DNA from: Candidatus Saccharimonadia bacterium
GTDB taxonomy: Bacteria; Patescibacteriota; Saccharimonadia; UBA4664
Direction: 5' to 3'
DNA length: 64,000 bases
NCBI GenBank assembly: GCA_035544015.1
Contig: DATKIP010000076.1
Span: forward strand, 256,299 to 320,298
In this document: positions 1 through 14,670 of the stretch, one piece after another
Numbering within the stretch: position 1 is the first letter of the stretch
How the letters are laid out: every line of letters starts with the position of its first letter
Position numbers and translations under genes: made by a program
Notes under the pieces: model-generated
Told to the model about the DNA's origin: nothing
Databases searched by the model: none
The model's input: the letters and a program-made list of their open reading frames with translations, nothing else

Positions 1-130
1 TTTGCAGCGCTGCGCTGCCGATGCTGTCAGTTTTTTGCGCACCATCATCGGCATGGGTAATCAGCAAGTAATCATTCAATATCGCCGCCCAAGCGTCAAC
101 GTCACCTCCCGGAACGGGTAATCTTGCCAT
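1..130 (-). CDS. N-terminal fragment (runs off window edge) of a fourth tandem beta-helix/pectate-lyase-fold paralog
   Basis: Reverse translation from 130 gives MARLPVPGGDVDAWAAILNDYLLITHADDG..., matching the conserved N-terminus of the three complete paralogs. GGAGG Shine-Dalgarno a few nt upstream of the ATG. Confidence 0.5.
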   Translation of the reverse strand, partial: MARLPVPGGDVDAWAAILNDYLLITHADDGAQKTDSIGSAALQ

Positions 131-184
131 AATCCCTCCACTTTCTTGTACTAACGACTATCGCGCGTTGGTCTTAACTACCCA

Positions 185-2224
185 TTAAGCCGTTACCGTA
201 TAGTCAAAATTGAGGACCAAACCTGGCAGGAGCGCCGATCGCGTCGAAACCGTAAAGGCACTAGCGCTTCGCGCCGATACGTAGAGATCACCCGAAGTTA
301 CCGAGTGATCGTACAAAATGATGGCCAACGGCGCCGCCGCGTACGGCCGCGAAAACGTCACAGTGGCGATTGTGCCAGGCGCAGTCGGCACGGGTCGGAC
401 GGTAGCCGTAATGTTGCCGGCCACGTCTCGCACCTGTACGCGGGGACTGGCGCTGTTGGCTTGATTGCCGGGCGAAACCCGCGGCGGCGTCCCTACCGCC
501 ACCGGCCGGCCGTTCGAGTCAAAAGCCTGGCCTTGGATGTTGTACGTCTCATCTTGAAATTCCAGCAGGCGGTTAAAGGAAGTGCTCGATGGCCTCACGA
601 CAGCAATACCACGGTCGTCACCGGCCGCCGCCCGCACGAGCATGGCTATACCGGTGAAGGGCGTCGCGTTAATTCCCACATAGCCCTTTGTGCCCTCTAT
701 CTGGAACTTTCCGCCGGCAAATCGCGCTGCTCCCGTAGGCCCTACAATCCGCCACTTTTCCGCCGCATAGCTGTCAGAAAACCCAGCCAGGTCAAGCCCA
801 TTTACCGCATTTAGAGCTGGCCGCGTGCCAGTATTGTCGAGCTTTAGCAGGTCCTTGTGAATAACATTAGAAGTAATCTTAAACACACCCGATGCATCAA
901 GTGGCAAAGTCAGCCCTCGGCTCGCACTTGAGATCGTCACTGAGGACACATCACCAACCGTCGGCTTGCCGCGGTTGATCACCGTACTCGATACAATTAC
1001 ATCTTCGGCTTCAGGCTCTGCAATAACCGCCGCCTCCGTTGGGTCCTCTGCCGGGAAGAACGTATCAAGCTTGTAGTACATATGCGGGCCGCTGCGATAA
1101 ATATGTACCAAAGACCGGGCAATGCTCAGCTCGGCACCCCATTGTATATACACGTCCGTCATAAATACGTGCGAGCCGTGATCCTCGATCGCGTCCAGCG
1201 GTTTTACCAGATCCGGATCCACCGCCATCATGGCGATATAGAGCTGGTTCACAAATACAATTGTGGTCCCCTCCATGATCTGGAAAGCCGGCCCCGCAGC
1301 ATGGCGGCTTTCCATTTTACACGACACCAAAAATATCCCGTTCAACAGATTGGGCGACCCATTAGCTCCGCCGTCGAGCTTTAGAGCGCCATTTCGCCAG
1401 CCTTCCCAGCGGCAGCCCAAAAAATGAATCTGGTTCGTATTATCAACCCCAAAGCCAAATACCCCCGAGGGCATAGTGTTGCGCAAGAGCACGGCCGGGT
1501 CGCTCAGGGAGCCGCACTCCTCCCAGCTGCTGCTGAAAAATCGCGTGTCCCACACCTCCACGAAGTCCATAGAAAGCCCGTCGCAGTTAATGAAGCTCAC
1601 GTCGCGGTACACGAAGTTGTCGGCAAAGATCGATCTCAGCAGCACCCCCGGCTGGTAGTTGCCGCTCAAGGTAATGCTCAGAAGCGAACCGTACTTAATG
1701 TGGCCGTCAAGCGTCGCGGTGCCACTAAACTCAATCAGTGGGTCGGCGCCGCTATGCCGCACGAGTCGTGTACCCCAGCGCGCTTCGCCGGTGATGGTGA
1801 TGCCGTTCTTCTTAACTTTGAGCCCGCGCACAAGATAGGTACCGCGGGGAATATGCACCACACCGCCATTGGCCGCGTAGTTAATAGCAGCCTGTATCGC
1901 AGCGGTATCATCAGCGACACCATCTCCTTTCGCGCCAAAGCTAAGCACGTTGATCTGCAGTCTATCGAGCGGCACCTTCGTCGTATCGCGCAAAACCTCG
2001 CCAACCTTCCGCCAGACGAGTCGCGTATTGTCGTTGGTGAGCACGAGATTTGTGAGCATTTGATCTGCCGGATTTTTAACGTCGAGATCATGAAGCTCTA
2101 CCGAATGAGCCGGAATACTTTCTACGCGCTGCGATCCGTCCGGATTGTGCGATACCAGCAAGTATTCATTTAACACTCCCGCCCAGGCATCAACATCGCC
2201 TCCGGGTATCGGTAATCTGGCCAT
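185..2224 (-). CDS. Right-handed beta-helix protein (pectate-lyase-3 / tailspike-like fold), paralog 1 of the tandem array
   Basis: ORF 185..2260 trimmed to the Met at MARLPIPGGD (AAGGAG upstream). Signature NVLSFGAKGDGVADDTAAIQAAINYA...GGVVHIPRGTY typical of the PF12708-type beta-helix. C-terminal ~60 aa shared with the paralogs. Confidence 0.7.
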   Translation of the reverse strand: MARLPIPGGDVDAWAGVLNEYLLVSHNPDGSQRVESIPAHSVELHDLDVKNPADQMLTNLVLTNDNTRLVWRKVGEVLRDTTKVPLDRLQINVLSFGAKGDGVADDTAAIQAAINYAANGGVVHIPRGTYLVRGLKVKKNGITITGEARWGTRLVRHSGADPLIEFSGTATLDGHIKYGSLLSITLSGNYQPGVLLRSIFADNFVYRDVSFINCDGLSMDFVEVWDTRFFSSSWEECGSLSDPAVLLRNTMPSGVFGFGVDNTNQIHFLGCRWEGWRNGALKLDGGANGSPNLLNGIFLVSCKMESRHAAGPAFQIMEGTTIVFVNQLYIAMMAVDPDLVKPLDAIEDHGSHVFMTDVYIQWGAELSIARSLVHIYRSGPHMYYKLDTFFPAEDPTEAAVIAEPEAEDVIVSSTVINRGKPTVGDVSSVTISSASRGLTLPLDASGVFKITSNVIHKDLLKLDNTGTRPALNAVNGLDLAGFSDSYAAEKWRIVGPTGAARFAGGKFQIEGTKGYVGINATPFTGIAMLVRAAAGDDRGIAVVRPSSTSFNRLLEFQDETYNIQGQAFDSNGRPVAVGTPPRVSPGNQANSASPRVQVRDVAGNITATVRPVPTAPGTIATVTFSRPYAAAPLAIILYDHSVTSGDLYVSARSASAFTVSTRSALLPGLVLNFDYTVTA

Positions 2225-2304
2225 AGTAATGAAATCTCCTTTTGGCTTCATTAATACCAAAGAAGAATGAACTGTTTATTAATTAAGTACCGGTTTCAAT
2301 ATGG

Positions 2305-4317
2305 TTAGGCAACCACGAGATATTCAAAATTGAGCAACGATCCGCCCGCCAGCGCGTTGCGCGTGGACACCGTAAATCCGGCGGTGCTGCGCGCCGACAC
2401 GTACAGATTGGCGGCTACGGCCGAGTGGTCGGTGAGCATAATCGTCAGCGGTGCCACGGCGTACGGCCTCGAAAACGTCACCGTGGCAATGGCGCCGGGC
2501 GCGGTGGGGGAGGGGCGCACCGCGGCCACGATATTGCCCGCCACATCGCGCACCTGCACCCCCGGGTTAGCGTAGCTCACCTGCGCGCCGGGCGTCACGT
2601 GCGGGGGCGTGCCTACCACCACGGGCCGGCCGTTAGAATCAATCGACAAGCCTTGAATAGCGAAGGCCTCGTCCTGAAACTCCAGCAACCGGTTGGTGGC
2701 CGTGCTCGTAGGCCGCACGATGGCCAGACCCCGGTCGCCCTCGACCGCCGCCTTGATGAGCATGGCAATCCCCGTAAACGGCGTAGCATTAATGCCCACG
2801 TAACCTTTGGTGGCCTCAATCTGGAACTTCCCTCCCGCGAACCGCGCCGCGCCCGTAGCCCCGATAATCCGCCATTTTTCAGTCGTGAAGGCATCGGAGT
2901 AGCCCACCACATCCACCGCATTCACTGCTTGCAGCGCCGGCCGGGTGGGGTTATCGTCGATTTTTACCAGGGTATTGCCCGTAGTTTGATCCGTCACCCG
3001 AAACGAGCCCGGATACAGCAGTGGAACGTTAAGGCCGGTCATCGGGCTGCTGCCGAGTACTTGGCTAAAGTTGCCCAGCCCATCGGTGCTGCTATCCGTA
3101 TTTGACCACAGCGTGGTGACCGTCACGTCTACCACCCCGGGCTCCACCCAAATGGTGGCATGCGAAGGAACGCCAGTGGTGTAAAACGTCGTGATTTCCT
3201 GATACATATGGGGAGCGTTGCCGATAATATGTGCCACCGAGCTGGCGATGCCCGGTACATCTCCCCAGTGCACAAACACGTCCGACATAAAGATATGCGA
3301 AGCGTTATCCAGTATCACATCGATGGGCGTGGAGTAGCCTGCGTCAAAGCCGGTAACGGCCACATACAATTGGTTCACAAAGATAACCGTGGAATTTTCC
3401 AGCGCCTGAATGAACGGCCCGGCGGCCACGAGCGTTTCCATTTTGCACGAGACGAAGAAAATACCATTGAGCAATTCCGTGGAGCCACCAAAGGTTCCGT
3501 CCAGCCGGACCGCACCGTTGCGAAAACCCTCCCAGCGGCAGCAAGTGAAGTAGATCTGGTTGGTGTTATCGTCGCTGAAGCCAAACGTACCGGGCTCCGT
3601 GCTATTGCGCAGCAGCGTGCAGGCCTCGGTAGCCGAGCCACAATCTTCCCACGCACACTCGATAAACCGCGTATCCCAGACCTCCACAAAATCGATAGCC
3701 GCTCCCACGCAATGAATGAAATTTATCTGCCCATACAAGCAGGTGTCGGCATAATACGACCGCAGCAATGGCCCGGACATGAAGTTGCCGCTAAGCATGA
3801 TGTTGTTGATGGAGGCGTAGCGGATGTGGCCGATTTTGGTGCCCGATCCGCTAATGGTAATGAGCGGAGCGTTGCCGCTCTTGCGCACAATCCGCGTCGC
3901 CCAGCGGCCATCGCCCAAGATGTTGGTGCCTTTATTGCGCAGGACGAGGCCGGTGACCATATAGACGCCCCGGGGCAAAAAGATGGTGCCGCCGTTGACG
4001 GCCGCATCGATGGCCGATTGGATGGCCGCCGTGTCGTCGGTGGCGCCGTCGCCCTTGGCGCCGTAATTGCTCACATCCAACACCGTATCGGCCCGCCACT
4101 TCAGATTGACTCCGTCGTTCGATAGCACAAAATTGCCGATAGCTTGCCCGGCGGGGTTGATCGTTTTCAGATCCCCCAGCCCCACTGTCGCCGCCGCCAA
4201 CGTGCTCACCGCCTCCGCCCGCGGCGTCCCATCCGGATTGTGCGCCACCAACAAAAAATCATTTAATACTTTAGCCCAAACGTCGTGATCGCCGCCTGGC
4301 TTGGGAAGCCGTGCCAT
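2305..4317 (-). CDS. Right-handed beta-helix protein (pectate-lyase-3 / tailspike-like fold), paralog 2
   Basis: 670 aa ORF with AGGAG SD. Same conserved N-terminus MARLPKPGGDHDVWAKVLNDFLLVAHNPDGT, beta-helix motif NYGAKGDGATDDTAAIQSAIDAA, conserved C-terminal module. Estimated >80% identical to paralog 3. Confidence 0.75.
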   Translation of the reverse strand: MARLPKPGGDHDVWAKVLNDFLLVAHNPDGTPRAEAVSTLAAATVGLGDLKTINPAGQAIGNFVLSNDGVNLKWRADTVLDVSNYGAKGDGATDDTAAIQSAIDAAVNGGTIFLPRGVYMVTGLVLRNKGTNILGDGRWATRIVRKSGNAPLITISGSGTKIGHIRYASINNIMLSGNFMSGPLLRSYYADTCLYGQINFIHCVGAAIDFVEVWDTRFIECAWEDCGSATEACTLLRNSTEPGTFGFSDDNTNQIYFTCCRWEGFRNGAVRLDGTFGGSTELLNGIFFVSCKMETLVAAGPFIQALENSTVIFVNQLYVAVTGFDAGYSTPIDVILDNASHIFMSDVFVHWGDVPGIASSVAHIIGNAPHMYQEITTFYTTGVPSHATIWVEPGVVDVTVTTLWSNTDSSTDGLGNFSQVLGSSPMTGLNVPLLYPGSFRVTDQTTGNTLVKIDDNPTRPALQAVNAVDVVGYSDAFTTEKWRIIGATGAARFAGGKFQIEATKGYVGINATPFTGIAMLIKAAVEGDRGLAIVRPTSTATNRLLEFQDEAFAIQGLSIDSNGRPVVVGTPPHVTPGAQVSYANPGVQVRDVAGNIVAAVRPSPTAPGAIATVTFSRPYAVAPLTIMLTDHSAVAANLYVSARSTAGFTVSTRNALAGGSLLNFEYLVVA

Positions 4318-4337
4318 ATCTATACTCCTATTATTAA

Positions 4338-6350
4338 TTAAGCTGCTACGGTGTAGTCAAAGTTCAGAATCGAGCCTCCGGGTAGGGGTGAGCGTGTCGA
4401 TACTACAAAGCTGCTGCCGCTGCGGGCCGAAACGTACAAGTCCGCGGCAATGGCCGAGTGGTCGTTGATGGCGATAGAGAGCGGAGCAGCGGCGTAAGGC
4501 TTGGAAAAGGTAATCCGCACAATGGTGCCTGGTGCCGTGGGGCTCGGCTTCACGGCCGCCGTGATGTTGCCGGCAATGTCGCGCACCTGATCGCGCGGGT
4601 TGGCGTAGCTCACTTGAGCACCGGCCGTCACCGTCGCCGGAGTGCCCACAGCCACCGGGCGGCCACTGAAGTCGAAGGCCTGCCCCTGGAGCGTGTTGGT
4701 TTCATCCTGAAACTCCAAGAGCCTACCGACCGCCGCACTGGTGGGCCGCACAATCGCCAGCCCCCGGTCGCCGGCCGCCGCGGCTTTCACGAGCATGGCA
4801 ATCCCCGTAAACGGCATAGCATTGATCCCCACATAGCCTTTGGTAGGCTCAATCTGAAACTTCCCGCCCGCAAACCGCGCCCCGCCCGTGGCACCGATAA
4901 TCCGCCATTTTTCGGTGGTGAAGGTGTCGGAGTAGCCGATCAAGTCCACGCCGTTCCCCGCCTGCAGCGCCGGCCGGGTAGTATTCGCATTAACTTTTAT
5001 CAGTGCGCGGTCTGTGACCTGGTCGGTAATCTGAAAGGCGCCCGGATACTCCAGCGGCACGTTCAGGCCGGTCATCGGGCTGCTGCCCACCACTTGGCTG
5101 AAGTCGCCCAAGCCGTCGGTGCTAGTAGGCGCATTCGACCACAGCCTCGTAATCGTCACATCGGAGGCGGCCGTCTCGGTCCAGATTGTAGCGTGCGAAG
5201 GAACGCCGGTGGTATAGAAGGTGGTGACGCTCTGATACATATGCGGCGAGTTGCTCATAATGTGTGCCACCGAGCTCGCGATACCCGGCACATCCCCCCA
5301 GTGCACAAAGATATTCGACATAAAGATATGCGAAGCGTTGTCCTGGATCACGTCAATGGGCGTGGAGTAGCCCGCATCAAAGCCGGTGACAGCCACATAG
5401 AGCTGGTTTACGAATACCACCGTCGTATTATCGGTCGTCTGAATGAAGGGCCCAGCCGCCACAATCGACTCCATCTTGCACGACACAATGAAGACTCCGT
5501 TGAGCATCTCCGTGGAACCGCCAAAGGTCCCGTCCATCCGAATCGCGCCGTTGCGAAAACCCTCCCAGCGGCAAGAGCTAAAGTAAATTTGGTTAGTATT
5601 ATCCCTGCTGAAGCCAAAATTTCCCGGAGCCGTGCTATTGCGCAGTAAGACACAGGCCTCAGTCGCCGAACCGCAGTCTTCCCAGGCGCACTCCAGGAAG
5701 CGCGTATCCCAGACCTCCACAAAGTCGATAGCCCGGCCGACCGTGTGAATGAAATTTATCTGCCCAAATAAACACGTATCAGCATAATACGACTGCACCA
5801 ATGTGCCGGGCATAAAGTTGCCGCTGAGCATGATGTTGTTGATGGACGCATATCGCAAATGCCCAATCTTGCTGCCCGACCCGTTCATCGTAATCAGCGG
5901 AGCGTTGCCGCTGAGCCGCACAATCCGCGTCGCCCAACGGCCGTCGCCGAGGATATTGGTGCCTTTGTTACGCAGGACGAGGCCGGTGACCATATAGACC
6001 CCGCGTGGCAAAAACACCGTGCCGCCGTTGATAGCTGCGTCGATGGCCGATTGGATAGCGGCCGTGTCGTCGTGGATGCCGTCGCCGACGGCGCCATAGT
6101 TCGTCACATCCAGCACCGTCGCGGCCTTCCACTTCAGGTTGATCCCGTCATTCGACAGCACAAAGTTCCCGATCGCCTGTCCCGCCGGATTGCTTGTTTT
6201 CAGATCCGCCAACCCCACCGTAGCCGCGGCCAGCGTGCTCACTGCCTCCGTGCGCGGTGTGCCGTCCGGATTGTGCGCCACCAAGAGAAAATCGTTTAAT
6301 ACTTTGGCCCAAACATCGTGATCGCCGCCTGGCTTGGGAAGCCGTGCCAT
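4338..6350 (-). CDS. Right-handed beta-helix protein (pectate-lyase-3 / tailspike-like fold), paralog 3
   Basis: 670 aa ORF with AGGAG SD, near-duplicate of 2305..4317. Follows the Wzx gene by 3 nt. Confidence 0.75.
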   Translation of the reverse strand: MARLPKPGGDHDVWAKVLNDFLLVAHNPDGTPRTEAVSTLAAATVGLADLKTSNPAGQAIGNFVLSNDGINLKWKAATVLDVTNYGAVGDGIHDDTAAIQSAIDAAINGGTVFLPRGVYMVTGLVLRNKGTNILGDGRWATRIVRLSGNAPLITMNGSGSKIGHLRYASINNIMLSGNFMPGTLVQSYYADTCLFGQINFIHTVGRAIDFVEVWDTRFLECAWEDCGSATEACVLLRNSTAPGNFGFSRDNTNQIYFSSCRWEGFRNGAIRMDGTFGGSTEMLNGVFIVSCKMESIVAAGPFIQTTDNTTVVFVNQLYVAVTGFDAGYSTPIDVIQDNASHIFMSNIFVHWGDVPGIASSVAHIMSNSPHMYQSVTTFYTTGVPSHATIWTETAASDVTITRLWSNAPTSTDGLGDFSQVVGSSPMTGLNVPLEYPGAFQITDQVTDRALIKVNANTTRPALQAGNGVDLIGYSDTFTTEKWRIIGATGGARFAGGKFQIEPTKGYVGINAMPFTGIAMLVKAAAAGDRGLAIVRPTSAAVGRLLEFQDETNTLQGQAFDFSGRPVAVGTPATVTAGAQVSYANPRDQVRDIAGNITAAVKPSPTAPGTIVRITFSKPYAAAPLSIAINDHSAIAADLYVSARSGSSFVVSTRSPLPGGSILNFDYTVAA

Positions 6351-6352
6351 AT

Positions 6353-7633
6353 CTATACTCCTAAGCGTTTATTATTAATTCCCATCAAGCAGAGTCCACC
6401 CACGCCGCACGCCGCCACGTTACCAAGCGCCCAGGCCCAGCCCACCGTCAGGAGTCCCCCGTGGGGCACCCAGAGAAAACTCAAGCCCAAAATCACCCCC
6501 GCGTAGGTCACATTCATCGCTACCACCCCGCGCAGGTTCTTAGTGACCTTGAAGATCGCCCCCAGAGCCGAATACACCGCCACCGGCAGCGCACTGAGGG
6601 CAAAGATTTGCAACAGTGCACCCGCCTGCGCTGCATACGCCCGGCCGAATACCCCCAGCAGCCACCCGCTCAGCGCCGCCACCACGAGCGCCGCCGGCAC
6701 CAGCGTCACGCCGATCATGCGCGCGGCTTTGGTCACATGCGCCCGGATGGCCGTCTCGTCGTGCGAACCTTCCGCAAACACCGACTGCATCGACGCATAG
6801 GCGATGGTGTAGAGCACCCCCGCGATAGTAAAAGCCATGTAGTAGAAGGCCGCCGGCTCCGGACCCAGCTGATGAATAATAATCAGCGGCAAGACGGTCG
6901 GCGGAATCAAATTCAAAACGCTCGAGAAATAAACCGAAACCGAAAATTTCCGTACCACCCGCAGCGCGTCCACATCCAGCCGAGGGGAAAATCGGTAGCC
7001 AAACCGGTGGTACATCCAAGCGACGCTCAAAACCAACCCCAGCAGCTGAGCCAGGCCCGCCAGCACAAAAATCCCCATGGCGCCGCCGTTCACCACTACG
7101 AGGGGTAGCATCACCTTAAACGCGCTAAACGTCGCATTAATCGCAAAAATATATCGAGCTTCTTTGTAAGCCAAAAACACCGCATTGGTCAGCACATTCA
7201 GCGACGTCACGACCGTGAAAAACACAAATCCCACCAGTGCCCAGCCGCTCCCGAGCATCGAAAGCTGGGGCGATATGCGCGGCAACACCAGCGCCAGAGC
7301 TAGGGCCAGCCCGGCGCTCGCGAGGGTCACAATGATAAACCCACTGTTGATGTAGTCATTCTTGTGCTCCGATCGCGGCAAAAAGCGCACAAACGTCGTG
7401 TCAAAGCCCCCCAGCCCCAAAAGCGAAAGCAATCCCGATACCGAAAGCAGCGTCGTTGCCAGCCCCACGGCAGCCGTATCGTGCGTACGAGCCACCACCA
7501 CCCAAAACCCCAGCCCCGCCGCCGCTACCACGAAGGTCGAGAGCATGAGATAGAAAGCATTCACCACTAAGCTGCTGGCACGTAGGGCCTGCAGCCGTAC
7601 CGATATCGGCGTCAGCCAAACCGCCGTCGTCAC
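6353..7633 (-). CDS. Polysaccharide biosynthesis flippase, Wzx-like (MOP superfamily), 12-14 TM
   Basis: 426 aa highly hydrophobic ORF with the multi-TM topology of Wzx/MurJ-type exporters. GTGA overlap with the upstream gene. Sits in a glycosyltransferase operon. Confidence 0.6.
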   Translation of the reverse strand: MTTAVWLTPISVRLQALRASSLVVNAFYLMLSTFVVAAAGLGFWVVVARTHDTAAVGLATTLLSVSGLLSLLGLGGFDTTFVRFLPRSEHKNDYINSGFIIVTLASAGLALALALVLPRISPQLSMLGSGWALVGFVFFTVVTSLNVLTNAVFLAYKEARYIFAINATFSAFKVMLPLVVVNGGAMGIFVLAGLAQLLGLVLSVAWMYHRFGYRFSPRLDVDALRVVRKFSVSVYFSSVLNLIPPTVLPLIIIHQLGPEPAAFYYMAFTIAGVLYTIAYASMQSVFAEGSHDETAIRAHVTKAARMIGVTLVPAALVVAALSGWLLGVFGRAYAAQAGALLQIFALSALPVAVYSALGAIFKVTKNLRGVVAMNVTYAGVILGLSFLWVPHGGLLTVGWAWALGNVAACGVGGLCLMGINNKRLGV

Positions 7634-9957
7634 TGGTACACTCGCGTAGACGAAGTGCTGTAAATTTGGTTTTTAGTCGTATCGTAATAGCCAACCGGGA
7701 AAGTCATTACGAGTGGGCTGCTTTCGTAATACGCATAAAACTTCTGTGACACAATCTGGGCGTAATCCAGATAGACGTAGCTCTTAGGCTTAAGCTGGGA
7801 TGGCAAAATGCCCGTGTGGCCAAAAGGATATTCCGGATCGTGCATAACCGCGCGGTTGAAGTTTGCGGCTCGCACGTCACCCCCCTTCGGGACGTGTGTC
7901 TTGAGCCACACAAATGACTCATAATCCGCCGCCGATGAGTAATACAAGCCAAAATACAGACCCCGATTATTCAGGCTCAGTGACGGACTCGTTCCCCCCA
8001 GCATCTGGGCAAACATGCCCGTAAAAAGAAAAAACAAGCCCACCACCCCTATCGTGGCAATGCTCGTGCGCATCCAGGCACGAAGCGGTCTGTGTAGCTG
8101 AGCCAGCAGGAGCGTGATCGGTAAGACCAGAAAAATAAGCGCCTGCTGAAATGCCCGCAAAACCCCATAATTCACTGATAAAACCGGCAATACCACCATG
8201 AGGGCCAGCAGCACAATACCGGCCATACTCAGGCAAATAAAATCAATCGTAAGTGTGTCGGGCCGTTTCCGAAAGAGCGTATCAATGCCCAGCGCATCCG
8301 GCCGCTTCCGTAGCAAGACATACACCGCGTAGAGCACACCGGCCAAAGCCAGCAGCTGCAGAAATTTGGCAAAATTCTGGCGCAGCGTAGTAATGATCGA
8401 CGGATTCAGGCCCATCGATTGAGCTTTTTTGCCTAGCCACGTCAGCGGCAGGTCGTCGCTCGTAAGCAAAGGCATGGGCTCCGCCGGACCCGCCTCATGT
8501 GCAGCCGCACCACCCTGGGAAGTCTTGATGTAGGTTTGGTACAAATCCACCACCGACTTGCTGCCCGAAAAAACCAGCGCCACGGAGGTATCCGAAGATT
8601 TATTGTCTTCCGTCATCAACTTAGGAATGTTGGCGATCGAACTGCGAATCGTCGTCAGAAGCCCATTCGAGGTAGCGGTAATTTGCGTATACCAGATAAA
8701 CGTCATCAGCAATATCAGCCCCGCGTATAGCGGCGATACCACGCTGCGGGGAGTGCGGTACTGCGGCGACCGGCGCTTCTGCCACCACCCGACCACGTAC
8801 TTGCACACCACCGCCCCCGCAAACAACGCCACAAACATGTAGGCCGTCGAGTAGTGCGACAGCACCGCTCCCAGGGCGCACAGCAAAAACAGCCGCCGAT
8901 ATCTTTTCTTCTGAGTTTTATTCGATATCACGAGCAACGCCAGCGCAAAAAAGAGGTAGGCCACGCCCTGGCGAGTCAACATGGCCGAATCATTCACAAA
9001 CGTGGGGTAGGAAATAAACAGCATGCATCCCGCCAGGGCGCCGAGACGCGACACATATTGCCGCAGCAGCACATACAACACTGCCGGGCAGGCCGCGAAG
9101 ACAATTTGCAAAATAAGCTTAAATACCAACAGGCCCGATACGCCGAGCAGCTTCGCAAACATCTCCGGCAAGATAGTGATGCTCAAGCAAGCGTTGTAGG
9201 GATCGCGGTTGAGGCCAATGTCCCACCGTCCGTTCAGGTGAGCCAGCGTGTATACCCGAAACTCACGCTCAATATCGTGCCCCAAAATATCCCACCCGCG
9301 AAGCGAAGTCATGAGCAATATGCTTAGACCCATCACGAAAATAAACCATGCCAGCAGCCCATCGGGCAGACGTCGCCGCAATACAAACGCATAAACGATC
9401 AAAATGGCCGCGTAGCCCAACGTGGCCTGCGCTACGAGCGCGTCGCCGCCATTATTGAGCCGAATGGCGCCCAAAGCCGCCAGACCCGGAAGCAGCAGCG
9501 TGAGGAACCCAAACATCCATGCCAGGTTCGATACCCCCGCCAGCGACCATCGTCGCAGCTTGGCCGGCTGCGGGTTGGTGAAAACACCCGCCACAATAAT
9601 CGCGGCCGTTACCAGCGTCCAGATGATAGCAATGCCCGGGAGTTCGAGCGGCCGGCTGATGCCGACCATCATCAGGGCTTGGTTCGTCACCAATCCACTC
9701 ACCATCAACACGAGCACGCTGAGGCCAAAACTATACAGCACGCCGGCCGAGATCGTTTTGAGCGTAATGCGCAACGCTCGCAGCAATGCCACCCCCGGCA
9801 GAAATACCAAACTCACAAACAGCCCGACCCGAAGCGGCCACCATCCCGCGCTATCAACGAGCCAAATCAGCACATCCGTAACCAACAGCCAGCCCAAAAG
9901 CTCGGCCGCGGTCTTGTTGGTACTAATCTCCCAGAATTTCTTCATAGAGATCTTCAT
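7630..9957 (-). CDS. Large polytopic membrane protein, candidate GT-C-fold glycosyltransferase or Wzy-like polymerase
   Basis: 775 aa, more than 12 predicted TM helices plus a hydrophilic C-terminal domain. Operon context between glycosyltransferases and the flippase. No specific motif recognised. Confidence 0.4.
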   Translation of the reverse strand: MKISMKKFWEISTNKTAAELLGWLLVTDVLIWLVDSAGWWPLRVGLFVSLVFLPGVALLRALRITLKTISAGVLYSFGLSVLVLMVSGLVTNQALMMVGISRPLELPGIAIIWTLVTAAIIVAGVFTNPQPAKLRRWSLAGVSNLAWMFGFLTLLLPGLAALGAIRLNNGGDALVAQATLGYAAILIVYAFVLRRRLPDGLLAWFIFVMGLSILLMTSLRGWDILGHDIEREFRVYTLAHLNGRWDIGLNRDPYNACLSITILPEMFAKLLGVSGLLVFKLILQIVFAACPAVLYVLLRQYVSRLGALAGCMLFISYPTFVNDSAMLTRQGVAYLFFALALLVISNKTQKKRYRRLFLLCALGAVLSHYSTAYMFVALFAGAVVCKYVVGWWQKRRSPQYRTPRSVVSPLYAGLILLMTFIWYTQITATSNGLLTTIRSSIANIPKLMTEDNKSSDTSVALVFSGSKSVVDLYQTYIKTSQGGAAAHEAGPAEPMPLLTSDDLPLTWLGKKAQSMGLNPSIITTLRQNFAKFLQLLALAGVLYAVYVLLRKRPDALGIDTLFRKRPDTLTIDFICLSMAGIVLLALMVVLPVLSVNYGVLRAFQQALIFLVLPITLLLAQLHRPLRAWMRTSIATIGVVGLFFLFTGMFAQMLGGTSPSLSLNNRGLYFGLYYSSAADYESFVWLKTHVPKGGDVRAANFNRAVMHDPEYPFGHTGILPSQLKPKSYVYLDYAQIVSQKFYAYYESSPLVMTFPVGYYDTTKNQIYSTSSTRVYQ

Positions 9958-11029
9958 ATTCTTTCAAGGTCCGGTTCCATCGCAGCCCCTCCGCCGACGC
10001 GAACCCCCGCGACACCATTTCCGGTAATGAGGAGTAGCGGTCGTAGAATTCATCAATGCCCCGAACCAGACCTGTCGCCGTCGGCTCCACGATAATCCCC
10101 ACCTTTTGGATGTGATCTGCCACCCCGATCACGTCCGTGCCGATAATCGGTATCCGGGCTGCCATCGCCTCAAACAACACGAGAGGCTGGGCCTCGTAGA
10201 GCGAAGGCATGATGAGCGCATCGCACGCTTCATAAAATCGCATCACTTCCTGTCGTTTGAGCCGGCCGTGCACGGTCACATTCCCTAGGCCGTAATCCGC
10301 AATGAAGCCGTCTATCACGGCCCGCTCTTCACCGTCGCCCACGATATCTAAATGCACGCTCCGTTTGGTCTTACGCAGAGCCTCCAGCAGCACCGGAACA
10401 TTTTTTTGTTTACTAAGCCGTCCCACAAACAGGAGGTGCAGGATGTTGGGTGGCTGGGGAGCAAATGGCAAACGCTCCAAAGTAAAGTAAACCTCATCTA
10501 TCCCATTGTGCATCACGCGGGCACGCTTGCAGCCATACGTCCTACGAACCATGCGCAGGGTTTGCTCATTGAGGGTGACCACCATGGCCGCCGACCTCAG
10601 TACGCGTCCCAGTACCAGGCGTTTATAGAGCGGCAGCAAGAGGCCCGCCGGCCCCGAGGGTTCAAAATCAATATGCAACTGAGCGATGTACCGAAAGCGA
10701 CGCAGCTTCGAAACCAGCCATACCATTTCTGGCGTAAAAGCCTGGCCGATATGCAGGTGCACGACGCTACCCGCTCGAGCCGCACGAAAAAGCCCAATGG
10801 GAAACCAAGGCATGATCGGCGCATGCCCAAACACGACGCCGCCAAACCGCGTTACCCGCACGCCGTCTTCCAGGCTCGTGCCTGCCGCGCCTCCGCCCGC
10901 GGTTGAAGTCAGCACATCCACCTGGTGGTCGCGGGCGAGCTGCGTGGCCAAATCATGCACCGCATTTTCTTGCCCACCCAGATGGGGAGGGTAGTACGAG
11001 CTTACCTGAACAATATGCTCCGCCCTCAT
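9923..11029 (-). CDS. Glycosyltransferase family 4 (GT-B fold)
   Basis: 368 aa. N-terminal Glyco_transf_4-like and C-terminal Glycos_transf_1-like halves with the conserved EX7E region (MPSLYEAQPLVLFEAMAARIPII). Confidence 0.7.
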   Translation of the reverse strand: MRAEHIVQVSSYYPPHLGGQENAVHDLATQLARDHQVDVLTSTAGGGAAGTSLEDGVRVTRFGGVVFGHAPIMPWFPIGLFRAARAGSVVHLHIGQAFTPEMVWLVSKLRRFRYIAQLHIDFEPSGPAGLLLPLYKRLVLGRVLRSAAMVVTLNEQTLRMVRRTYGCKRARVMHNGIDEVYFTLERLPFAPQPPNILHLLFVGRLSKQKNVPVLLEALRKTKRSVHLDIVGDGEERAVIDGFIADYGLGNVTVHGRLKRQEVMRFYEACDALIMPSLYEAQPLVLFEAMAARIPIIGTDVIGVADHIQKVGIIVEPTATGLVRGIDEFYDRYSSLPEMVSRGFASAEGLRWNRTLKEYEDLYEEILGD

Positions 11030-11586
11030 ACGACACTCCCGTAGATCGCTTCGGCCGATTGCGCGATCAAAGGCCAGGCGTATTTTTTCGACTCCTCGTA
11101 GCCCTTGGCCGCTACTCGCGAGCTCGATTCATGGTCGGTCATGCACCGTCTCATAGCCTGCATGAGCGAGCGCTCATCGCCCGGCGACACGATATAGGCT
11201 GCCTCGAAATCTGGCGATACCTCGTGCAAAATACCCACCGGCGTTATGATCACCGGCACCGTTGCCGCCCAAGCCTCCAGGAGGGTCAGCGGCGTCGTCT
11301 CGTAGAGCGACGGAAATACGGCCGCATCGGTCCGCGAAAGCATCGTCCTCACCTCGCTCGGGTCCTTACGCCCCACCAAGAGCACCACGTCCTCGACGCG
11401 CAGTTCGCGCGCCAGATCAAGCAGGGCGTCATATTGCGAGCCGTCGCCGATAATTACCACCCGGAACACTCCCGGCAGCTCCCCGATGAGGAGCGCTGCG
11501 GCTCGAATCAGATACTCGCACCCCTTTTGGCGCTCAAGGCGGCCGATCGACAAAAAGGTATAAACCTCCGATTTCACTGACATCAT
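11026..11586 (-). CDS. GT4 glycosyltransferase C-terminal (Glycos_transf_1) domain as a separate ORF
   Basis: 186 aa: ...FPSLYETTPLTLLEAWAATVPVIITPVG..., the donor-binding half only. ATGA overlap with the preceding N-domain ORF. Confidence 0.55.
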   Translation of the reverse strand: MMSVKSEVYTFLSIGRLERQKGCEYLIRAAALLIGELPGVFRVVIIGDGSQYDALLDLARELRVEDVVLLVGRKDPSEVRTMLSRTDAAVFPSLYETTPLTLLEAWAATVPVIITPVGILHEVSPDFEAAYIVSPGDERSLMQAMRRCMTDHESSSRVAAKGYEESKKYAWPLIAQSAEAIYGSVV

Positions 11587-12176
11587 CTTCCCCGCCAGAA
11601 TGCGAGATCCACACCGTTAGGCAGCAGTACGGTTTGGACAAGTCCTGCAGCCTGCAGCTTCGCCACGTCATAACTATTAGGCGCCGTGGCCGAGCGCAGA
11701 TGAGCCGCGCGCGCGAGCCATAGTTCAGATTTTCGACGGAGCGCCGACTGGGTCGCATCGTAGAACGTTACGATATGAAAGGTATGAACCATGGGAATCC
11801 CGTACAACCGGGCCGCAAACGAAACAAAAAAAGCCATATCTATCGAGTGCGTGTGGATCACATCCGGCCGCTCTCTCCGCAAAATACCAAACATCCCCAG
11901 AGATAAAATCACCAGAGACACCAGCCGTTTCGGGGTGATCGAATCAAGGCTGGCCGGAGTATCCTTCATCCCAATCTTGTAGATATGCCGACCCTTAAGT
12001 ATTTCGTTGCAATTTGATGTCACCACCGCTACGTCGTGGCCGGCCGCTTGCTGCTGACGTCGCAAATTGGATACCACTACCGCGTCGCCGCCCAGCGCAT
12101 CGGGATACTTCTTGCAGACATGCAGAATATTCATAGCATGTATGCCTCCACTTGTTTTTTGGCCAGCTGGTTCCAA
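11583..12176 (-). CDS. GT4 glycosyltransferase N-terminal (Glyco_transf_4) domain as a separate ORF
   Basis: 197 aa: MNILHVCKKYPDALGGDAVVVSNL...VHTHS..., the acceptor-binding half only. Stop overlaps the start of the C-domain ORF. Confidence 0.5.
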   Translation of the reverse strand: MEPAGQKTSGGIHAMNILHVCKKYPDALGGDAVVVSNLRRQQQAAGHDVAVVTSNCNEILKGRHIYKIGMKDTPASLDSITPKRLVSLVILSLGMFGILRRERPDVIHTHSIDMAFFVSFAARLYGIPMVHTFHIVTFYDATQSALRRKSELWLARAAHLRSATAPNSYDVAKLQAAGLVQTVLLPNGVDLAFWRGR

Positions 12177-13987
12177 TCGTATTCAGCTACCGGCATCGAG
12201 ATAATCGGCTTACTGGCGAAGGAGATCCAGTACAAAATCGCCTCGCTCAGTGCCCGAGGAGAGAGCACAACCTTGCTCCCATTCAGGCCCTCCTGTATGA
12301 AATGGCGCGCCGCATTGCCGGGGCTATCGATCGTAACGACCGGCGTGCCACACCCTAAGGCCTCGAGCGAGGTAATTCCAAAACCCTCGCGGGTCGACGG
12401 CGAACAAAAAACCCGAGCAGCTTTCATGTAGCCGTACACTTCCGACGCCTCGGGTAGAGAATCCAAGAACGTAATGTTCTTTTCCAGCTTCCGTTTCGTA
12501 ACCTCCTGCTTCAAGCGAGGCTTCTCCAGCCCGTCGCCAATTATCAGGCAAGACACTTCAGGATGGTGTTGCCGAATAATATCCACCGCCGCAATCAGTT
12601 CATCGACGTTTTTGTCTTTCACGAGCCTCCCCACATACAGCGCGTCCACACGAATGGGGCTCGTTCGCACAGCCCTCAGGAGCGAAGCATCAATGCCGGA
12701 GGCCACCAGGTTGACGCGCCGACTGCGCCCGTGAATAGTCTCAAGGAGCTCCTTGGTGTGGGCCGATGCGGCGGTGATGTGGTGAGGCAGGCGAATGCTG
12801 AGCCGTTCAACCCCCGCGGCCACAAATCCACCCATCCCCATGTAGTTGACCCACTCCTGGTAGGTGAGTGCCTCATGCCAGGTAGCCGACAGATTGCGAC
12901 CGCGCAAGGTGCACACAATCCAGGCCGTGAAAATCGGGAAAAACGGCATATGGTCCACATCGAGCACATCAAACTGAACCCGAAAGAGCTTAAAGCACGC
13001 CAAGCCAAACCCTATACCCTCCCGGATCGTCCGGCGGTCCCCATGGTACATCTCGTAATATTTACTCAACGCGTGCAAGTGCACCCCGAATTCCATCCGA
13101 GTCTTAGCGGGTTCATTCCACCAGTGCATGGTATAGATGTGAACGTCATACCCCATGAGCGCCAATCGCTTGGTGATTTCATGCAGGCGCTTTTCTTTTC
13201 CGCCCTTCATATAGGGATAAATCGCATCGCTTACAAATACGATCTTCCGCCCTTCGGGTACCGCCGGGGGGCGCCAGGCCAAGTTCCGCATGAACATGAG
13301 CAGAATACGCGAGCCATCTCTTAGCGGATGCAAATGAGACGCCCCTGCGCGCGGGTGGTAGCTTATCGGAACCGATGCCATCCGATGCCGGAGCCGAGCC
13401 ATTTTGGTGATCATCTCCATCTCGATAGCAAAATCGGTACTTTTAACATGCGGCTCCAGGGCATCGAGTGCCACCTTCTTCCAGGCAAAATATCCCGTGA
13501 GCACATCGGTTACGTTCGCGCCGTACAACACGCGCACAGCGGTCGTGAAGACCCGATTGCCGAACCGGTTAAATCTGCTCATCGCCGTGCTCTGAATCCG
13601 ACCGCCGAGTCTCGAACCCACTACCACATCGCAGAAGTCACTCCGCAATGGCTCTATCACGCGCAGAATTTCCCCAGGGCTATACGTGTCGTCGCCATCG
13701 AGCATCACAACATACTCGGAGTCGGGGGAAACCGTTCGAAATCCGGCTCGCAGGGCATTGCCCTTGCCCTTTTTCGATTCGTGAATCACCGTGGCGCCAG
13801 CTTCTCGCGCAATTTCGGCCGTATTATCAGAAGAGCCATTATCAACGACGAGTATCTCGAGCTGTACGCCATGCCGGGCTAGCTCGTCGAGGGGGAATTT
13901 GGCTATCACATGGCCGATACTGGCCGCCTCGTTATGGCACGGAATCACCACCGCCACTTTGGTAGACTTCGTATCACTTGGTCGCAT
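12131..13987 (-). CDS. Bifunctional glycosyltransferase: N-terminal GT2 (DPM/DPG-synthase-like) fused to C-terminal GT4
   Basis: 618 aa. N-terminus VAVVIPCHNEA...LVVDNGSSDNT...DGDDTY (GT2 DXD). C-terminal half has GT4 motifs (GRLVKDKNVDELI...EGFGITSLEALGCGTPVV). Confidence 0.7.
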   Translation of the reverse strand: MRPSDTKSTKVAVVIPCHNEAASIGHVIAKFPLDELARHGVQLEILVVDNGSSDNTAEIAREAGATVIHESKKGKGNALRAGFRTVSPDSEYVVMLDGDDTYSPGEILRVIEPLRSDFCDVVVGSRLGGRIQSTAMSRFNRFGNRVFTTAVRVLYGANVTDVLTGYFAWKKVALDALEPHVKSTDFAIEMEMITKMARLRHRMASVPISYHPRAGASHLHPLRDGSRILLMFMRNLAWRPPAVPEGRKIVFVSDAIYPYMKGGKEKRLHEITKRLALMGYDVHIYTMHWWNEPAKTRMEFGVHLHALSKYYEMYHGDRRTIREGIGFGLACFKLFRVQFDVLDVDHMPFFPIFTAWIVCTLRGRNLSATWHEALTYQEWVNYMGMGGFVAAGVERLSIRLPHHITAASAHTKELLETIHGRSRRVNLVASGIDASLLRAVRTSPIRVDALYVGRLVKDKNVDELIAAVDIIRQHHPEVSCLIIGDGLEKPRLKQEVTKRKLEKNITFLDSLPEASEVYGYMKAARVFCSPSTREGFGITSLEALGCGTPVVTIDSPGNAARHFIQEGLNGSKVVLSPRALSEAILYWISFASKPIISMPVAEYDWNQLAKKQVEAYML

Positions 13988-14537: not shown

Positions 14538-14632
14538 GTAACAATGTAGAAGAAGGATGTGATGTGAGTATTAACTTGGAGGTCTGGGTAGGCCGCCCCC
14601 CGATCCGGTTTCATAATATCGTCAACAAAAGT

Positions 14633-14641
14633 TGCTATAAT
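14633..14641 (+). promoter_or_regulatory. Candidate extended -10 element (TGCTATAAT) for the GH5-like gene
   Basis: TGnTATAAT about 30 nt upstream of the ATG at 14671, in the divergent intergenic region. Approximate coordinates. Confidence 0.35.
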
Positions 14642-14670
14642 CCCGACAGTTCAGAAAGGACAGTCATGTT

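What the first reader, a model, noticed from the sequence alone, without database searches (positions are those of the whole stretch)
1..6350. Four tandem paralogous tailspike-like beta-helix proteins at the 3-prime end of a cell-surface glycan biosynthesis operon
Three complete genes (679, 670, 670 aa) and the N-terminus of a fourth, all on the minus strand, encode proteins with the PF12708-type right-handed beta-helix signature (YGAKGDGxTDDTAAIQxAI...GGTxFxPRG) seen in phage tailspike depolymerases and polysaccharide lyases/hydrolases. Each has its own AGGAG SD. They follow, at 3 to 45 nt spacing and 4-nt overlaps, a Wzx flippase, a GT-C/Wzy-like membrane protein and five glycosyltransferase ORFs. 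The whole block 1..14537 therefore looks like one transcription unit. Paralogs 2 and 3 are near-duplicates, while paralog 1 and the partial one are more diverged, indicating ongoing duplication and diversification. A fourfold array of putative glycan-cleaving or glycan-binding beta-helix proteins embedded in the producing operon is unusual. It suggests chain-length control or remodelling of a surface polysaccharide, or glycan-recognising surface proteins.
Basis: partly seen in the sequence, partly recalled or inferred. Interest (0 to 1): 0.75.

Follow-up and report, generated by a model that had tools for sequence, protein, structure and literature searches.

The report
Tandem tailspike-like proteins beside glycan operon
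A soil Saccharimonadia (candidate-phyla-radiation) bacterium carries four tandem copies of a phage-tailspike-like sugar-binding or sugar-cutting protein right after a surface-sugar assembly operon; the layout recurs in related genomes and resembles a known biofilm-trimming enzyme (WceF), but here it is multi-copy and lacks any normal export signal.

Summary
Three complete minus-strand genes (4338-6350, 2305-4317, 185-2224) and the first 43 codons of a fourth (1-130; 680 aa on the parent contig) encode paralogous ~670-aa proteins. Each has a Pfam PF12708 cap, a confidently predicted right-handed beta-helix and a C-terminal beta-sandwich. The closest solved structure is Geobacillus phage E2 ORF18, followed by phage tailspikes. 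The window is from a Candidatus Saccharimonadia MAG. The same layout recurs in five further deeply diverged relatives: DUF1616-like protein, glycosyltransferases, a GT-C-fold membrane transferase, a Wzx-type flippase, then 2-4 beta-helix paralogs, then a convergent pyruvyl transferase and exosortase. A sixth related locus keeps the array and the pyruvyl transferase/exosortase side but not the GT operon. Paralogs fall into lineages older than these genomes, with some later duplications; the closest pair has dN/dS of about 0.13. The closest known analogue is Pantoea WceF, a tailspike-like glycosidase in an exopolysaccharide cluster. Differences: multiple copies, no Sec or Tat signal, and a conserved ~33-aa N-terminal 'MARLP' module. 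That module is shared with many Saccharimonadales fibre-like proteins and a few Streptomyces phage proteins. GH28 and AlgE catalytic motifs are absent. Function is inferred, not shown. I rate it a new variant of a known kind, of moderate interest.

The parts
4338..6350 (-). Beta-helix paralog A (670 aa), first of the array, B-type lineage
   Evidence: ORF; PF12708 E 2.3e-16; 80% identical to paralog B; starts 2 nt after the flippase stop with a TAGGAGT Shine-Dalgarno
2305..4317 (-). Beta-helix paralog B (670 aa), the protein modelled
   Evidence: ORF; PF12708 E 3.4e-17; AF2 model; Foldseek top hit 7chu phage GVE2 ORF18 at 5e-12, then tailspikes and AlgE4; identical to NCBI 'glycosyl hydrolase family 28-related protein', Candidatus Saccharimonadia MAG
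4219..4317 (-). MARLP N-terminal module of paralog B (residues 1-33); the same module starts all four paralogs
   Evidence: Invariant M1 R3 L4 P5 P7 D10 W14 L18 N19 L22 D29 G30 across diverse carriers; shared with other CPR proteins and Streptomyces phage proteins; no Pfam, PHROG or PDB relative
3058..4077 (-). Right-handed beta-helix of paralog B (residues ~81-420); the family's most conserved helix stretch is 221-300
   Evidence: pLDDT about 90; entropy profile; invariant E212, D215, E224, D250, R261, E263, K292, E294; motifs shared with 7chu and with Tat-signal proteins of Streptomyces and Kitasatospora
2308..2937 (-). Conserved C-terminal region of paralog B (residues 461-670): a 461-570 segment not foldable as a monomer, plus a 573-670 beta-sandwich
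   Evidence: Lowest entropy in the family; pLDDT about 30 for 458-570 and about 80 for 573-670; weak Gp53-like_C hit at E 0.052; the last ~100 aa recur at the C-terminus of other beta-helix or fibre-like proteins
185..2224 (-). Beta-helix paralog C (679 aa), C-type lineage found in most related arrays
   Evidence: ORF; PF12708 E 3.6e-16; 55-57% identical to A and B; clusters with L89_1, L4_1, L5_1 and L87_1
1..130 (-). First 43 codons of paralog D (680 aa on the parent contig), last gene of the array
   Evidence: complete gene at L001 14188-16230 with PF12708
6353..7633 (-). MOP-family (Wzx-type) flippase, 426 aa
   Evidence: PF13440 at 1.5e-10 and PF01943; about 10 TM-like windows
7630..9957 (-). 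DUF2206 membrane protein with a GT-C glycosyltransferase fold (771-775 aa)
   Evidence: PF09971 and PF13231; AF2 pTM 0.77; Foldseek top hits AftA, DPY19, STT3 and AglB, with PglB and ArnT further down
9923..11029 (-). GT4 glycosyltransferase (368 aa)
11026..12134 (-). GT4 glycosyltransferase split into two ORFs overlapping by 4 nt (N-domain 11583-12134, C-domain 11026-11586)
   Evidence: the joined halves (369 aa) align at 62-63% to intact 367-369 aa orthologs
12131..13987 (-). Bifunctional GT2-GT4 glycosyltransferase (618 aa)
13974..14537 (-). DUF1616-like single-TM protein (187 aa), first gene of the string
   Evidence: PF07760 below threshold at 4.2e-05; one N-terminal TM-like segment; same position in L004, L005 and L089

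Best explanation
The four genes encode a family, seen here almost only in soil Saccharimonadia, of tailspike-like proteins that are probably trimeric. Each has an N-terminal ~33-aa MARLP module, a right-handed beta-helix with an invariant set of charged residues, a conserved segment that likely folds only in an oligomer, and a C-terminal lectin-like beta-sandwich. They are expressed together with, and act on, the envelope glycan made by the neighbouring genes. In that pathway, cytoplasmic GT2/GT4 enzymes would build a lipid-linked oligosaccharide, a Wzx-type flippase would move it outward, and a GT-C transferase would attach it to an acceptor. A pyruvyl transferase encoded next door would modify it. 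The beta-helix proteins would bind and cleave or trim this glycan, as Pantoea WceF does for stewartan. Several non-redundant paralog types are kept per genome. Shown here: fold, family distribution, synteny, purifying selection, lack of a signal peptide. Inferred: glycanase activity, own glycan as substrate, trimer state, extracellular location, co-transcription.
For: Fold: PF12708; PHROG tailspike/tail-fibre families; profile match to phage GVE2 ORF18 at E 8e-22 over residues 60-293 with shared EVWDT and DNxNxxxFxxCxxE motifs; AF2 helix pLDDT about 90; Foldseek hits to tailspikes, AlgE4, RbmB and polygalacturonases. Enzyme-like conservation: residues 221-300 are among the least variable, and E212, D215, E224, D250, R261, E263, K292 and E294 are invariant in 37 members, including the three paralogs complete in the window; the core motifs also read through in the fourth. 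Functional link to the glycan locus: the same gene order appears in L004, L005/L006, L087 and L089, whose other operon proteins are only 52-69% identical to each other and to the window. The first paralog starts within about 0-10 nt of the flippase stop in each. By manual comparison of contig lengths, DUF2206 and beta-helix hits share most long contigs. All paralogs are retained under constraint: dN/dS 0.13 for A versus B, and orthogroups are shared across genomes. Precedent: WceF is a Tat-exported trimeric tailspike-like stewartan hydrolase encoded in the stewartan cluster, its knockout lengthens chains, and that cluster also holds a pyruvate transferase (PMC7949094). Actinobacterial homologs of the helix core (35-36% identity) carry Tat signals, so this helix family works outside the cell elsewhere.
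Against: No Sec, Tat or lipoprotein signal and no TM segment, whereas the neighbouring exosortase substrates have clear signals. Export is therefore unexplained. One conserved glycan pathway does not obviously need 2-4 divergent enzymes. Solo copies exist away from the operon (L003, L088), and in L090 the array is separated from the GT operon. The operon has no Wzy polymerase or chain-length regulator, and no recognisable priming transferase. It looks more like an oligosaccharide-transfer pathway than a long-polymer pathway, so 'chain-length control' may not apply. GH28 and AlgE catalytic motifs are absent, and sequence similarity to WceF is marginal (E 0.015, cap region only). No activity data exist.
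Confidence: 0.4

Rival explanations
1. Host-directed spikes. The proteins are surface-displayed, phage-derived receptor-binding or depolymerase proteins. The epibiotic Saccharimonadia cell would use them to recognise and locally digest surface polysaccharides of its (probably actinobacterial) host. Different paralog types would widen host or glycan range. The conserved termini would dock all types onto the same cell-surface partner, and the glycan locus would be co-expressed because it builds the surface they sit on.
For: The architecture is that of a phage receptor-binding protein: an N-terminal module, a beta-helix and a C-terminal lectin-like domain. The MARLP module occurs in Streptomyces phage proteins, including a collagen-repeat fibre. 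It also occurs in many Saccharimonadales mini-proteins that, by my own recollection of such motifs, look phage-fibre-like. The nearest non-CPR relatives of the helix core are in Streptomyces, Kitasatospora, Embleya and Nonomuraea. Multiple retained paralog types, variable copy number and shuffled order resemble receptor-binding-protein repertoires. The most variable segment is residues 381-460, while both termini are conserved. Solo copies outside the operon exist.
Against: The putative catalytic core is the most conserved part, and B-type orthologs are 79-85% identical across genomes whose DUF2206 proteins are only 54-63% identical. That conservation is not what an arms-race receptor binder would show. 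Tight, conserved linkage to the glycan operon is not required by this model. No export route is known. The host of this lineage is unknown, and that Saccharibacteria live on Actinobacteria is background knowledge, not tested here.
Confidence: 0.25
2. Structural surface glycoproteins. The beta-helix proteins are the acceptor substrates of the GT-C transferase, or otherwise the protein component of a spike or S-layer-like coat. The operon would encode a protein-glycosylation pathway together with its targets.
For: The large membrane protein has a GT-C fold whose best structural matches include oligosaccharyltransferases (STT3, AglB, PglB) and protein mannosyltransferase relatives. The operon has a flippase but no Wzy or Wzz, as in en-bloc glycosylation pathways. 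DUF1616 and DUF2206 are described in Pfam only as uncharacterised (predicted membrane) proteins; that they are chiefly archaeal families is my recollection. The targets are encoded directly downstream in six genomes.
Against: N-X-S/T sequons are not enriched and none is conserved in 70% or more of members. There is no signal peptide, so the proteins would not reach the GT-C active face by Sec. The invariant acidic/basic set in the helix suggests an active or binding site rather than a passive scaffold. AftA, a cell-wall arabinosyltransferase, is an equally good GT-C match.
Confidence: 0.12
3. Intracellular or membrane-face enzymes. Because they lack export signals, the proteins stay in the cytoplasm and modify or edit the lipid-linked oligosaccharide, or a nucleotide-sugar-derived polymer, before flipping.
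For: No signal peptide or TM segment. The first paralog follows the flippase gene within a few nucleotides, and all are tightly spaced.
Against: To my knowledge, characterised right-handed beta-helix glycan enzymes are almost all extracytoplasmic, and every solved-structure match here is a secreted enzyme or a virion protein. Actinobacterial homologs carry Tat signals. The C-terminal lectin-like domain and the fibre-type N-terminal module are typical of extracellular fibres.
Confidence: 0.1
4. Phage-derived cargo. The genes are remnants or components of a prophage or phage-like particle and sit next to the glycan operon by chance.
For: Best PDB and PHROG matches are phage tail proteins. The MARLP module is found in Streptomyces phages.
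Against: No other phage genes lie nearby. The position is conserved between the same cellular genes in genomes that differ by about 35-45% in protein sequence. Purifying selection acts on the pair tested. Only 4-6 records in a 50,697-record phage collection match, and only over the N-terminal third.
Confidence: 0.05

Closest known systems
Pantoea stewartii WceF (tailspike-like stewartan hydrolase encoded in the stewartan exopolysaccharide cluster; PDB 6TGF; PMC7949094)
   Same: A bacterial, not phage, protein of ~700 aa with an N-terminal phage-type domain, a right-handed beta-helix and C-terminal beta-sandwich domains. It is encoded inside a surface-glycan biosynthesis cluster that also contains a pyruvyl transferase gene.
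   Different: WceF is a single copy and has a Tat signal. Its N-terminal domain resembles the P22 head-binding domain, and its cluster is a Wzx/Wzy/Wzc pathway in a diderm. Here there are 2-4 paralogs and no signal peptide. The N-terminal module is the unrelated MARLP module, a GT-C transferase replaces Wzy/Wzc, and the organism is a CPR bacterium (which I take to be monoderm). Sequence similarity is marginal (E 0.015).
Geobacillus virus E2 ORF18 (PDB 7CHU, 'putative pectin lyase') and phage tailspike depolymerases (Sf6, CBA120 TSP3, phiAB6 and others)
   Same: Closest solved relative by sequence profile (E 8e-22) and by fold (E 5e-12), with shared helix motifs. The overall tailspike domain order is the same.
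   Different: Those proteins are encoded in phage genomes as virion proteins. Here the genes are chromosomal, syntenic with cellular envelope genes across divergent genomes, and present as arrays.
Azotobacter vinelandii AlgE1-7 mannuronan C5-epimerases
   Same: A multi-paralog set (partly clustered in the genome, from my own knowledge) of signal-less right-handed beta-helix enzymes that modify the cell's own exopolysaccharide. The AlgE4 A-module is the second-best fold match.
   Different: The catalytic YG(F/I)DPH(D/E) motif is absent from all 37 family members examined. There are no RTX-type R-modules, and no type I secretion genes were seen in the locus.
Tat-signal beta-helix proteins of Streptomyces, Kitasatospora, Embleya and Nonomuraea (uncharacterised)
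   Same: 35-36% identity across the helix core (residues ~80-377), with the same EFWD, DNxNQIHFxGCRxE and CKxE motifs.
   Different: They are ~420-460 aa and carry a twin-arginine signal in place of the MARLP module. They lack the conserved C-terminal 200 aa, are single genes, and are not in a comparable operon.

Membership tests
Pectate-lyase-like right-handed beta-helix superfamily (Pfam PF12708 type) | Match to the PF12708 HMM above the gathering score | tested here: met
   60-63 bits against a cutoff of 27 for all three complete paralogs and for the fourth on the contig. Only the N-terminal cap region aligns.
Pectate-lyase-like right-handed beta-helix superfamily (Pfam PF12708 type) | Right-handed parallel beta-helix fold | tested here: met
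   AF2 pLDDT about 90 over residues 80-420. There are 126 PDB matches at E<=0.001; the 50 listed are nearly all beta-helix enzymes or tailspikes. BFVD matches agree.
Glycoside hydrolase family 28 (the name NCBI gives: 'GH28-related') | Match to the Glyco_hydro_28 HMM and the conserved NTD / (G/Q)DD / (G/S)HG / RIK catalytic motifs | tested here: not met
   No PF00295 hit at E<=0.01. The motifs occur only sporadically, in 4-8 of 37 members and at non-equivalent positions. NCBIfam rhamnogalacturonidase hits score 25-35 bits against cutoffs of 500-650.
AlgE-type mannuronan C5-epimerase | Catalytic YG(F/I)DPH(D/E) motif | tested here: not met
   Found in 0 of 37 family members.
WceF-like exopolysaccharide-cluster tailspike-like glycosidase | Encoded within the biosynthesis cluster of a surface glycan | tested here: met
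   Last genes of the GT / GT-C / flippase string in the window and in five other loci.
WceF-like exopolysaccharide-cluster tailspike-like glycosidase | N-terminal Tat (or Sec) signal for export | tested here: not met
   No hydrophobic N-terminal segment and no twin-arginine motif; positive controls were detected.
WceF-like exopolysaccharide-cluster tailspike-like glycosidase | Homotrimer of beta-helices with intertwined C-terminal domains | not testable with these tools
   Only monomer prediction is available. The highly conserved residues 458-570 fold poorly as a monomer (pLDDT about 30), which is compatible with, but does not show, an intertwined oligomer.
WceF-like exopolysaccharide-cluster tailspike-like glycosidase | Hydrolysis of the cognate polysaccharide | not testable with these tools
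   Needs biochemistry.
WceF-like exopolysaccharide-cluster tailspike-like glycosidase | Sequence homology to WceF | tested here: inconclusive
   6tgf matched at E 0.015, covering residues 71-220 only.
Virion-borne phage tailspike / depolymerase | Encoded in a phage genome or prophage among structural genes | tested here: not met
   The flanks are cellular envelope genes with conserved synteny and no phage genes. The phage database gives only 4-6 partial matches.
Wzx/Wzy-dependent polysaccharide pathway (for the upstream operon) | Wzx flippase, Wzy polymerase, a Wzz/Wzc chain-length regulator and a priming phosphoglycosyl transferase | tested here: not met
   A Wzx-type flippase is present. The large membrane protein has a GT-C fold (AftA, DPY19, STT3, AglB), not a Wzy fold. 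No Wzz/Wzc or priming-transferase Pfam family was found in the string. The rest of the genome was not searched.

The most novel reading that the evidence does not exclude
Soil Saccharimonadia have domesticated phage receptor-binding proteins into a multi-type set of cell-surface spikes. The spikes would be exported or assembled through a previously undescribed N-terminal 'MARLP' module rather than through Sec or Tat. They would be anchored through their conserved C-terminal region to the pyruvylated glycan made by the adjacent operon, and used to recognise and digest surface polysaccharides of actinobacterial hosts. This would amount to a phage-like host-attachment apparatus in an epibiotic bacterium.
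Probability: 0.15. Interest if true: 0.85.

Novelty: new variant of a known kind. Interest (0 to 1): 0.55.

Why it matters
How candidate-phyla-radiation epibionts build their surface and recognise hosts is largely unknown, and these organisms are mostly uncultured. This locus offers a concrete, conserved and testable module. It combines a glycan-assembly operon using a GT-C transferase, a pyruvyl transferase, an exosortase with its substrates, and 2-4 tailspike-like proteins. If the proteins trim the cell's own glycan, WceF-type biology extends to a CPR lineage, with the added puzzle of several paralogs. If they face the host, they would be candidate host-range determinants. The MARLP N-terminal module heads many unrelated Saccharimonadales proteins that lack classical signals. 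It may mark an undescribed assembly or export route.

Tried and rejected
- Pfam and PHROG scans of the isolated N-terminal (1-82) and C-terminal (458-670) parts gave nothing significant; the only hit was Gp53-like_C at E 0.052.
- A profile of the MARLP module against PDB sequences gave no relative.
- The sigma-70 promoter and intrinsic-terminator scan over 1-15000 matched shuffle expectations, so it says nothing about transcription units.
- Rfam and tRNA scans of the window were empty.
- A full-text search for the PDB code 7CHU was uninformative; the entry was identified through Foldseek instead.
- Literature searches found nothing relevant for Saccharibacteria with tailspike, beta-helix or exosortase, or for DUF2206. 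The search for Saccharibacteria with S-layer and glycosyltransferase returned two papers that appeared unrelated from their titles and abstracts and were not read.
- The N-glycosylation sequon test found no enrichment and no conserved sequon.
- GH28 and AlgE assignments were rejected on motif checks.
- An exact-sequence lookup of the 679-aa paralog failed, probably because the gene caller used a different start. The locus was recovered through paralog B.
- The last homolog search, with the N-terminal profile, returned almost only proteins of 150 aa or less. It therefore shows breadth of the module but not its full range of architectures.

Full report
**1. Observation**

On the minus strand the window holds three complete ORFs: 4338-6350 (670 aa, here paralog A), 2305-4317 (670 aa, B) and 185-2224 (679 aa from the MARLP start, C). 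A fourth gene (D) begins at ATG 130.

Paralog B is identical to an NCBI protein named 'glycosyl hydrolase family 28-related protein' from a Candidatus Saccharimonadia MAG. The parent contig is ena:ERZ27251635:k141_318506, 320,396 bp. On it, paralog D is complete (680 aa) and is the last gene of the array, followed by convergent genes.

Each start has a Shine-Dalgarno-like motif. The upstream gaps are 2, 20, 80 and 54 nt.

PHROG hits at the same stretch are tail spike or tail fibre families.

**2. Fold**

An AlphaFold2 model of paralog B, built on 37 family sequences, gives these regions:
- A right-handed beta-helix at residues ~80-420, pLDDT about 90.
- A weakly predicted N-terminus, residues 1-80.
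- An unpredictable segment at residues 458-570, pLDDT about 30.
- A C-terminal beta-sandwich at residues 573-670, pLDDT about 80.

The family profile matches Geobacillus virus E2 ORF18 (7chu) at E 8e-22 over residues 60-293, with shared EVWDT and DNxNxxxFxxCxxE motifs. Foldseek ranks 7chu first. It then lists the AlgE4 epimerase, CBA120 TSP3, Sf6, phiAB6 and other tailspikes, RbmB and polygalacturonases. Viral predicted structures give the same picture.

GH28 catalytic motifs and the AlgE YG(F/I)DPH(D/E) motif are not conserved, so the NCBI name is only a superfamily-level label. The family has its own invariant charged set: E212, D215, E224, D250, R261, E263, K292 and E294. These lie in the least variable part of the helix, residues 221-300. 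I infer that they sit on consecutive rungs, from the DSSP strand pattern. This fits an active or binding groove, but no coordinates were available to check the geometry.

**3. Termini**

The last ~100 residues give a sub-threshold Gp53-like_C hit. In an exhaustive HMMER search they recur at the C-terminus of 58 representative proteins. Most of those examined are other beta-helix or phage-fibre-like proteins, and one has a weak H-type lectin hit.

Residues 461-620 are the most conserved part of the whole protein, yet residues 458-570 do not fold as a monomer. I take this as a hint of an intertwined oligomeric domain, as in WceF and tailspikes. This is inference.

The first ~33 residues have the pattern M(A/V/P)RLPxPGxDxxxW(G/A)xxLNx(Y/F)Lxx.HNxDG. 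They form a module that always starts at Met1. It has no Pfam, PHROG or PDB relative. It heads:
- other beta-helix proteins in Saccharimonadia, Levyibacteriota and an unclassified MAG, of 501-847 aa;
- 153- and 184-aa ORFs;
- many ~100-150 aa Saccharimonadales proteins with motifs I recall as phage-fibre-like;
- proteins of a few ~113-116 kb Streptomyces phages, namely GiJojo gp34 and a collagen-repeat protein of BRock.

None of the four paralogs has a Sec or Tat signal or a TM segment. The neighbouring exosortase substrates and a Streptomyces homolog scored as positive controls. Actinobacterial homologs of the helix core (35-36% identity) carry twin-arginine signals.

**4. Context**

Upstream, with 4-nt overlaps, lie the following genes:
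- A MOP/Wzx flippase.
- A 771-775 aa DUF2206 protein.
- A GT4.
- A GT4 split into two ORFs.
- A GT2-GT4 fusion.
- A single-TM DUF1616-like protein.

A model of the DUF2206 protein (pTM 0.77) matches GT-C enzymes: AftA, DPY19, STT3, AglB, PglB and ArnT. It is therefore a GT-C transferase, not a Wzy polymerase. No Wzz/Wzc or priming transferase is present in the string.

Downstream of the array, outside the window, are several convergent genes. They include a CsaB/WcaK-like pyruvyl transferase and five or six tandem ~150-aa proteins. Each of these has a Sec signal and a (V/I)PEYGWLGG-TM-RRR C-terminal sorting signal. An exosortase-family gene follows.

The layout [DUF1616-like, GTs, GT-C, flippase, 2-4 beta-helix genes, convergent pyruvyl transferase, exosortase, two-component system] recurs in L004, L005/L006, L087 and L089. 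The shared operon proteins of the genomes compared (the window, L004, L005 and L087) are only 52-69% identical. In L090 a two-gene array keeps the pyruvyl transferase/exosortase side but is detached from the GT operon. Solo copies occur in L003 and L088.

By manual comparison of contig lengths, most long contigs that carry a family member also carry a DUF2206 ortholog.

**5. Evolution of the array**

Pairwise identity between paralogs:

| Pair | Protein identity |
|---|---|
| A vs B | 80% (77% in DNA) |
| A or B vs C | 55-57% |
| D vs the others | 57-59% |

For A versus B, pS is about 0.55 and dN/dS about 0.13, so both copies are old and constrained.

A neighbour-joining tree of 20 array members from eight loci gives these groups:
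- A B-type clade: window A and B, L89_2, L90_2 and the L003 solo copy.
- A C-type clade present in most genomes.
- A D-type pair.
- A clade specific to L005 and L087.

Several paralog types therefore predate these genomes. Copy number (1-4) and order vary, which indicates birth-and-death evolution rather than a single recent burst.

B-type orthologs are 79-85% identical across genomes whose DUF2206 proteins are 54-63% identical. This points either to strong constraint or to exchange between lineages.

**6. Interpretation**

The best-supported reading, at about 0.4, is a WceF-like role. In this view the tailspike-like proteins are probably trimeric glycan binders or cleavers, co-expressed with and acting on the envelope glycan made by the locus.

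The main difficulties are the missing export signal, the need for several types, and the fact that the operon resembles an oligosaccharide-transfer pathway more than a long-polymer pathway.

The rivals are:
- Host-directed spikes or depolymerases, about 0.25. This is attractive because of the phage-type termini, the actinobacterial and Streptomyces-phage relatives, and the repertoire-like variation.
- Glycoprotein or structural coat components, about 0.12. No sequon signal was found.
- Cytoplasmic editing enzymes, about 0.1.
- Phage remnants, about 0.05. The conserved cellular synteny contradicts this.

**7. Novelty**

The held literature has no paper linking Saccharibacteria with tailspike or beta-helix proteins, exosortase or DUF2206. 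The concept of a tailspike-like glycosidase inside an exopolysaccharide cluster is known from WceF (PMC7949094). New here are the multi-type tandem arrays, the CPR setting, the GT-C-based operon, the lack of a classical signal and the MARLP module.

Verdict: a real, conserved feature; a new variant of a known kind; interest 0.55.

Noticed in passing
window 4219-4317, 6252-6350, 2126-2224, 32-130 (minus strand); also L003 ~1984, L088 ~5900, L015, L017, L018: A ~33-aa N-terminal 'MARLP' module, always at Met1, heads many otherwise unrelated Saccharimonadales/CPR proteins. These include ~100-aa mini-proteins with motifs I recall as phage-fibre-like, and 500-850 aa beta-helix proteins. A few Streptomyces phage proteins carry it too. 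It has no Pfam, PHROG or PDB relative, and none of the carriers examined has a Sec or Tat signal. It may be an assembly, anchoring or non-classical export module.
   Followed up: partly
L001 18038-21903 (parent contig, just beyond window position 1): Five or six tandem ~150-aa paralogs lie next to an exosortase-family gene (TIGR04178 signature; best sub-threshold match is exosortase E, VPEID-CTERM). Each has a Sec signal, a CarboxypepD_reg-like domain and a C-terminal (V/I)PEYGWLGG-TM-RRR sorting signal. An exosortase with at least one small neighbouring ORF also follows the array in L004, L005, L087, L089 and L090. No paper in the held library mentions both Saccharibacteria and exosortase.
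   Followed up: partly
window 11026-12134 (minus strand): The middle GT4 glycosyltransferase is split at its inter-domain boundary into two ORFs overlapping by 4 nt (ATGA). Orthologs in L004, L005, L087 and L089 are intact (367-369 aa). This could be a frameshift, an assembly error or a genuinely split gene.
   Followed up: partly
window 7630-9957 (minus strand): The DUF2206 protein models as a GT-C glycosyltransferase (AftA, DPY19, STT3 and AglB as top fold matches). The operon lacks Wzy, Wzz/Wzc and a recognisable priming transferase. It therefore resembles an en-bloc oligosaccharide-transfer pathway rather than a classical Wzy-dependent polysaccharide pathway.
   Followed up: yes
L090 7856-14244: In one relative, a two-gene beta-helix array keeps the convergent pyruvyl transferase/exosortase side but is not preceded by the GT / GT-C / flippase operon, which lies elsewhere on the same contig. 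The array can therefore have its own promoter.
   Followed up: partly
window 2305-6350 versus P0002, P0007, P0009 and P0014: B-type paralogs are 79-85% identical across genomes whose neighbouring DUF2206 proteins are only 54-63% identical. This suggests unusually strong constraint or horizontal exchange of this paralog type.
   Followed up: partly
window 36359-40246, 42015-43454, 47020-48624: Large PurL (FGAR amidotransferase), adenylosuccinate-lyase-like and PurH genes are present. From background knowledge, de novo purine synthesis genes are unusual for CPR/Saccharibacteria. This fits the ~1.1-1.5 Mb contigs seen for relatives of this lineage.
   Followed up: no
window 14671-15852 (+): A GH5 (cellulase-family) gene is transcribed divergently from the start of the glycan operon, sharing the 133-nt intergenic region 14538-14670.
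   Followed up: no
window 29391-32210 (-), 51076-52773 (-), 33682-36114 (-): Two large ORFs (939 and 565 aa) have no Pfam match. An 810-aa protein carries an S8 subtilase domain only in its C-terminal half.
   Followed up: no
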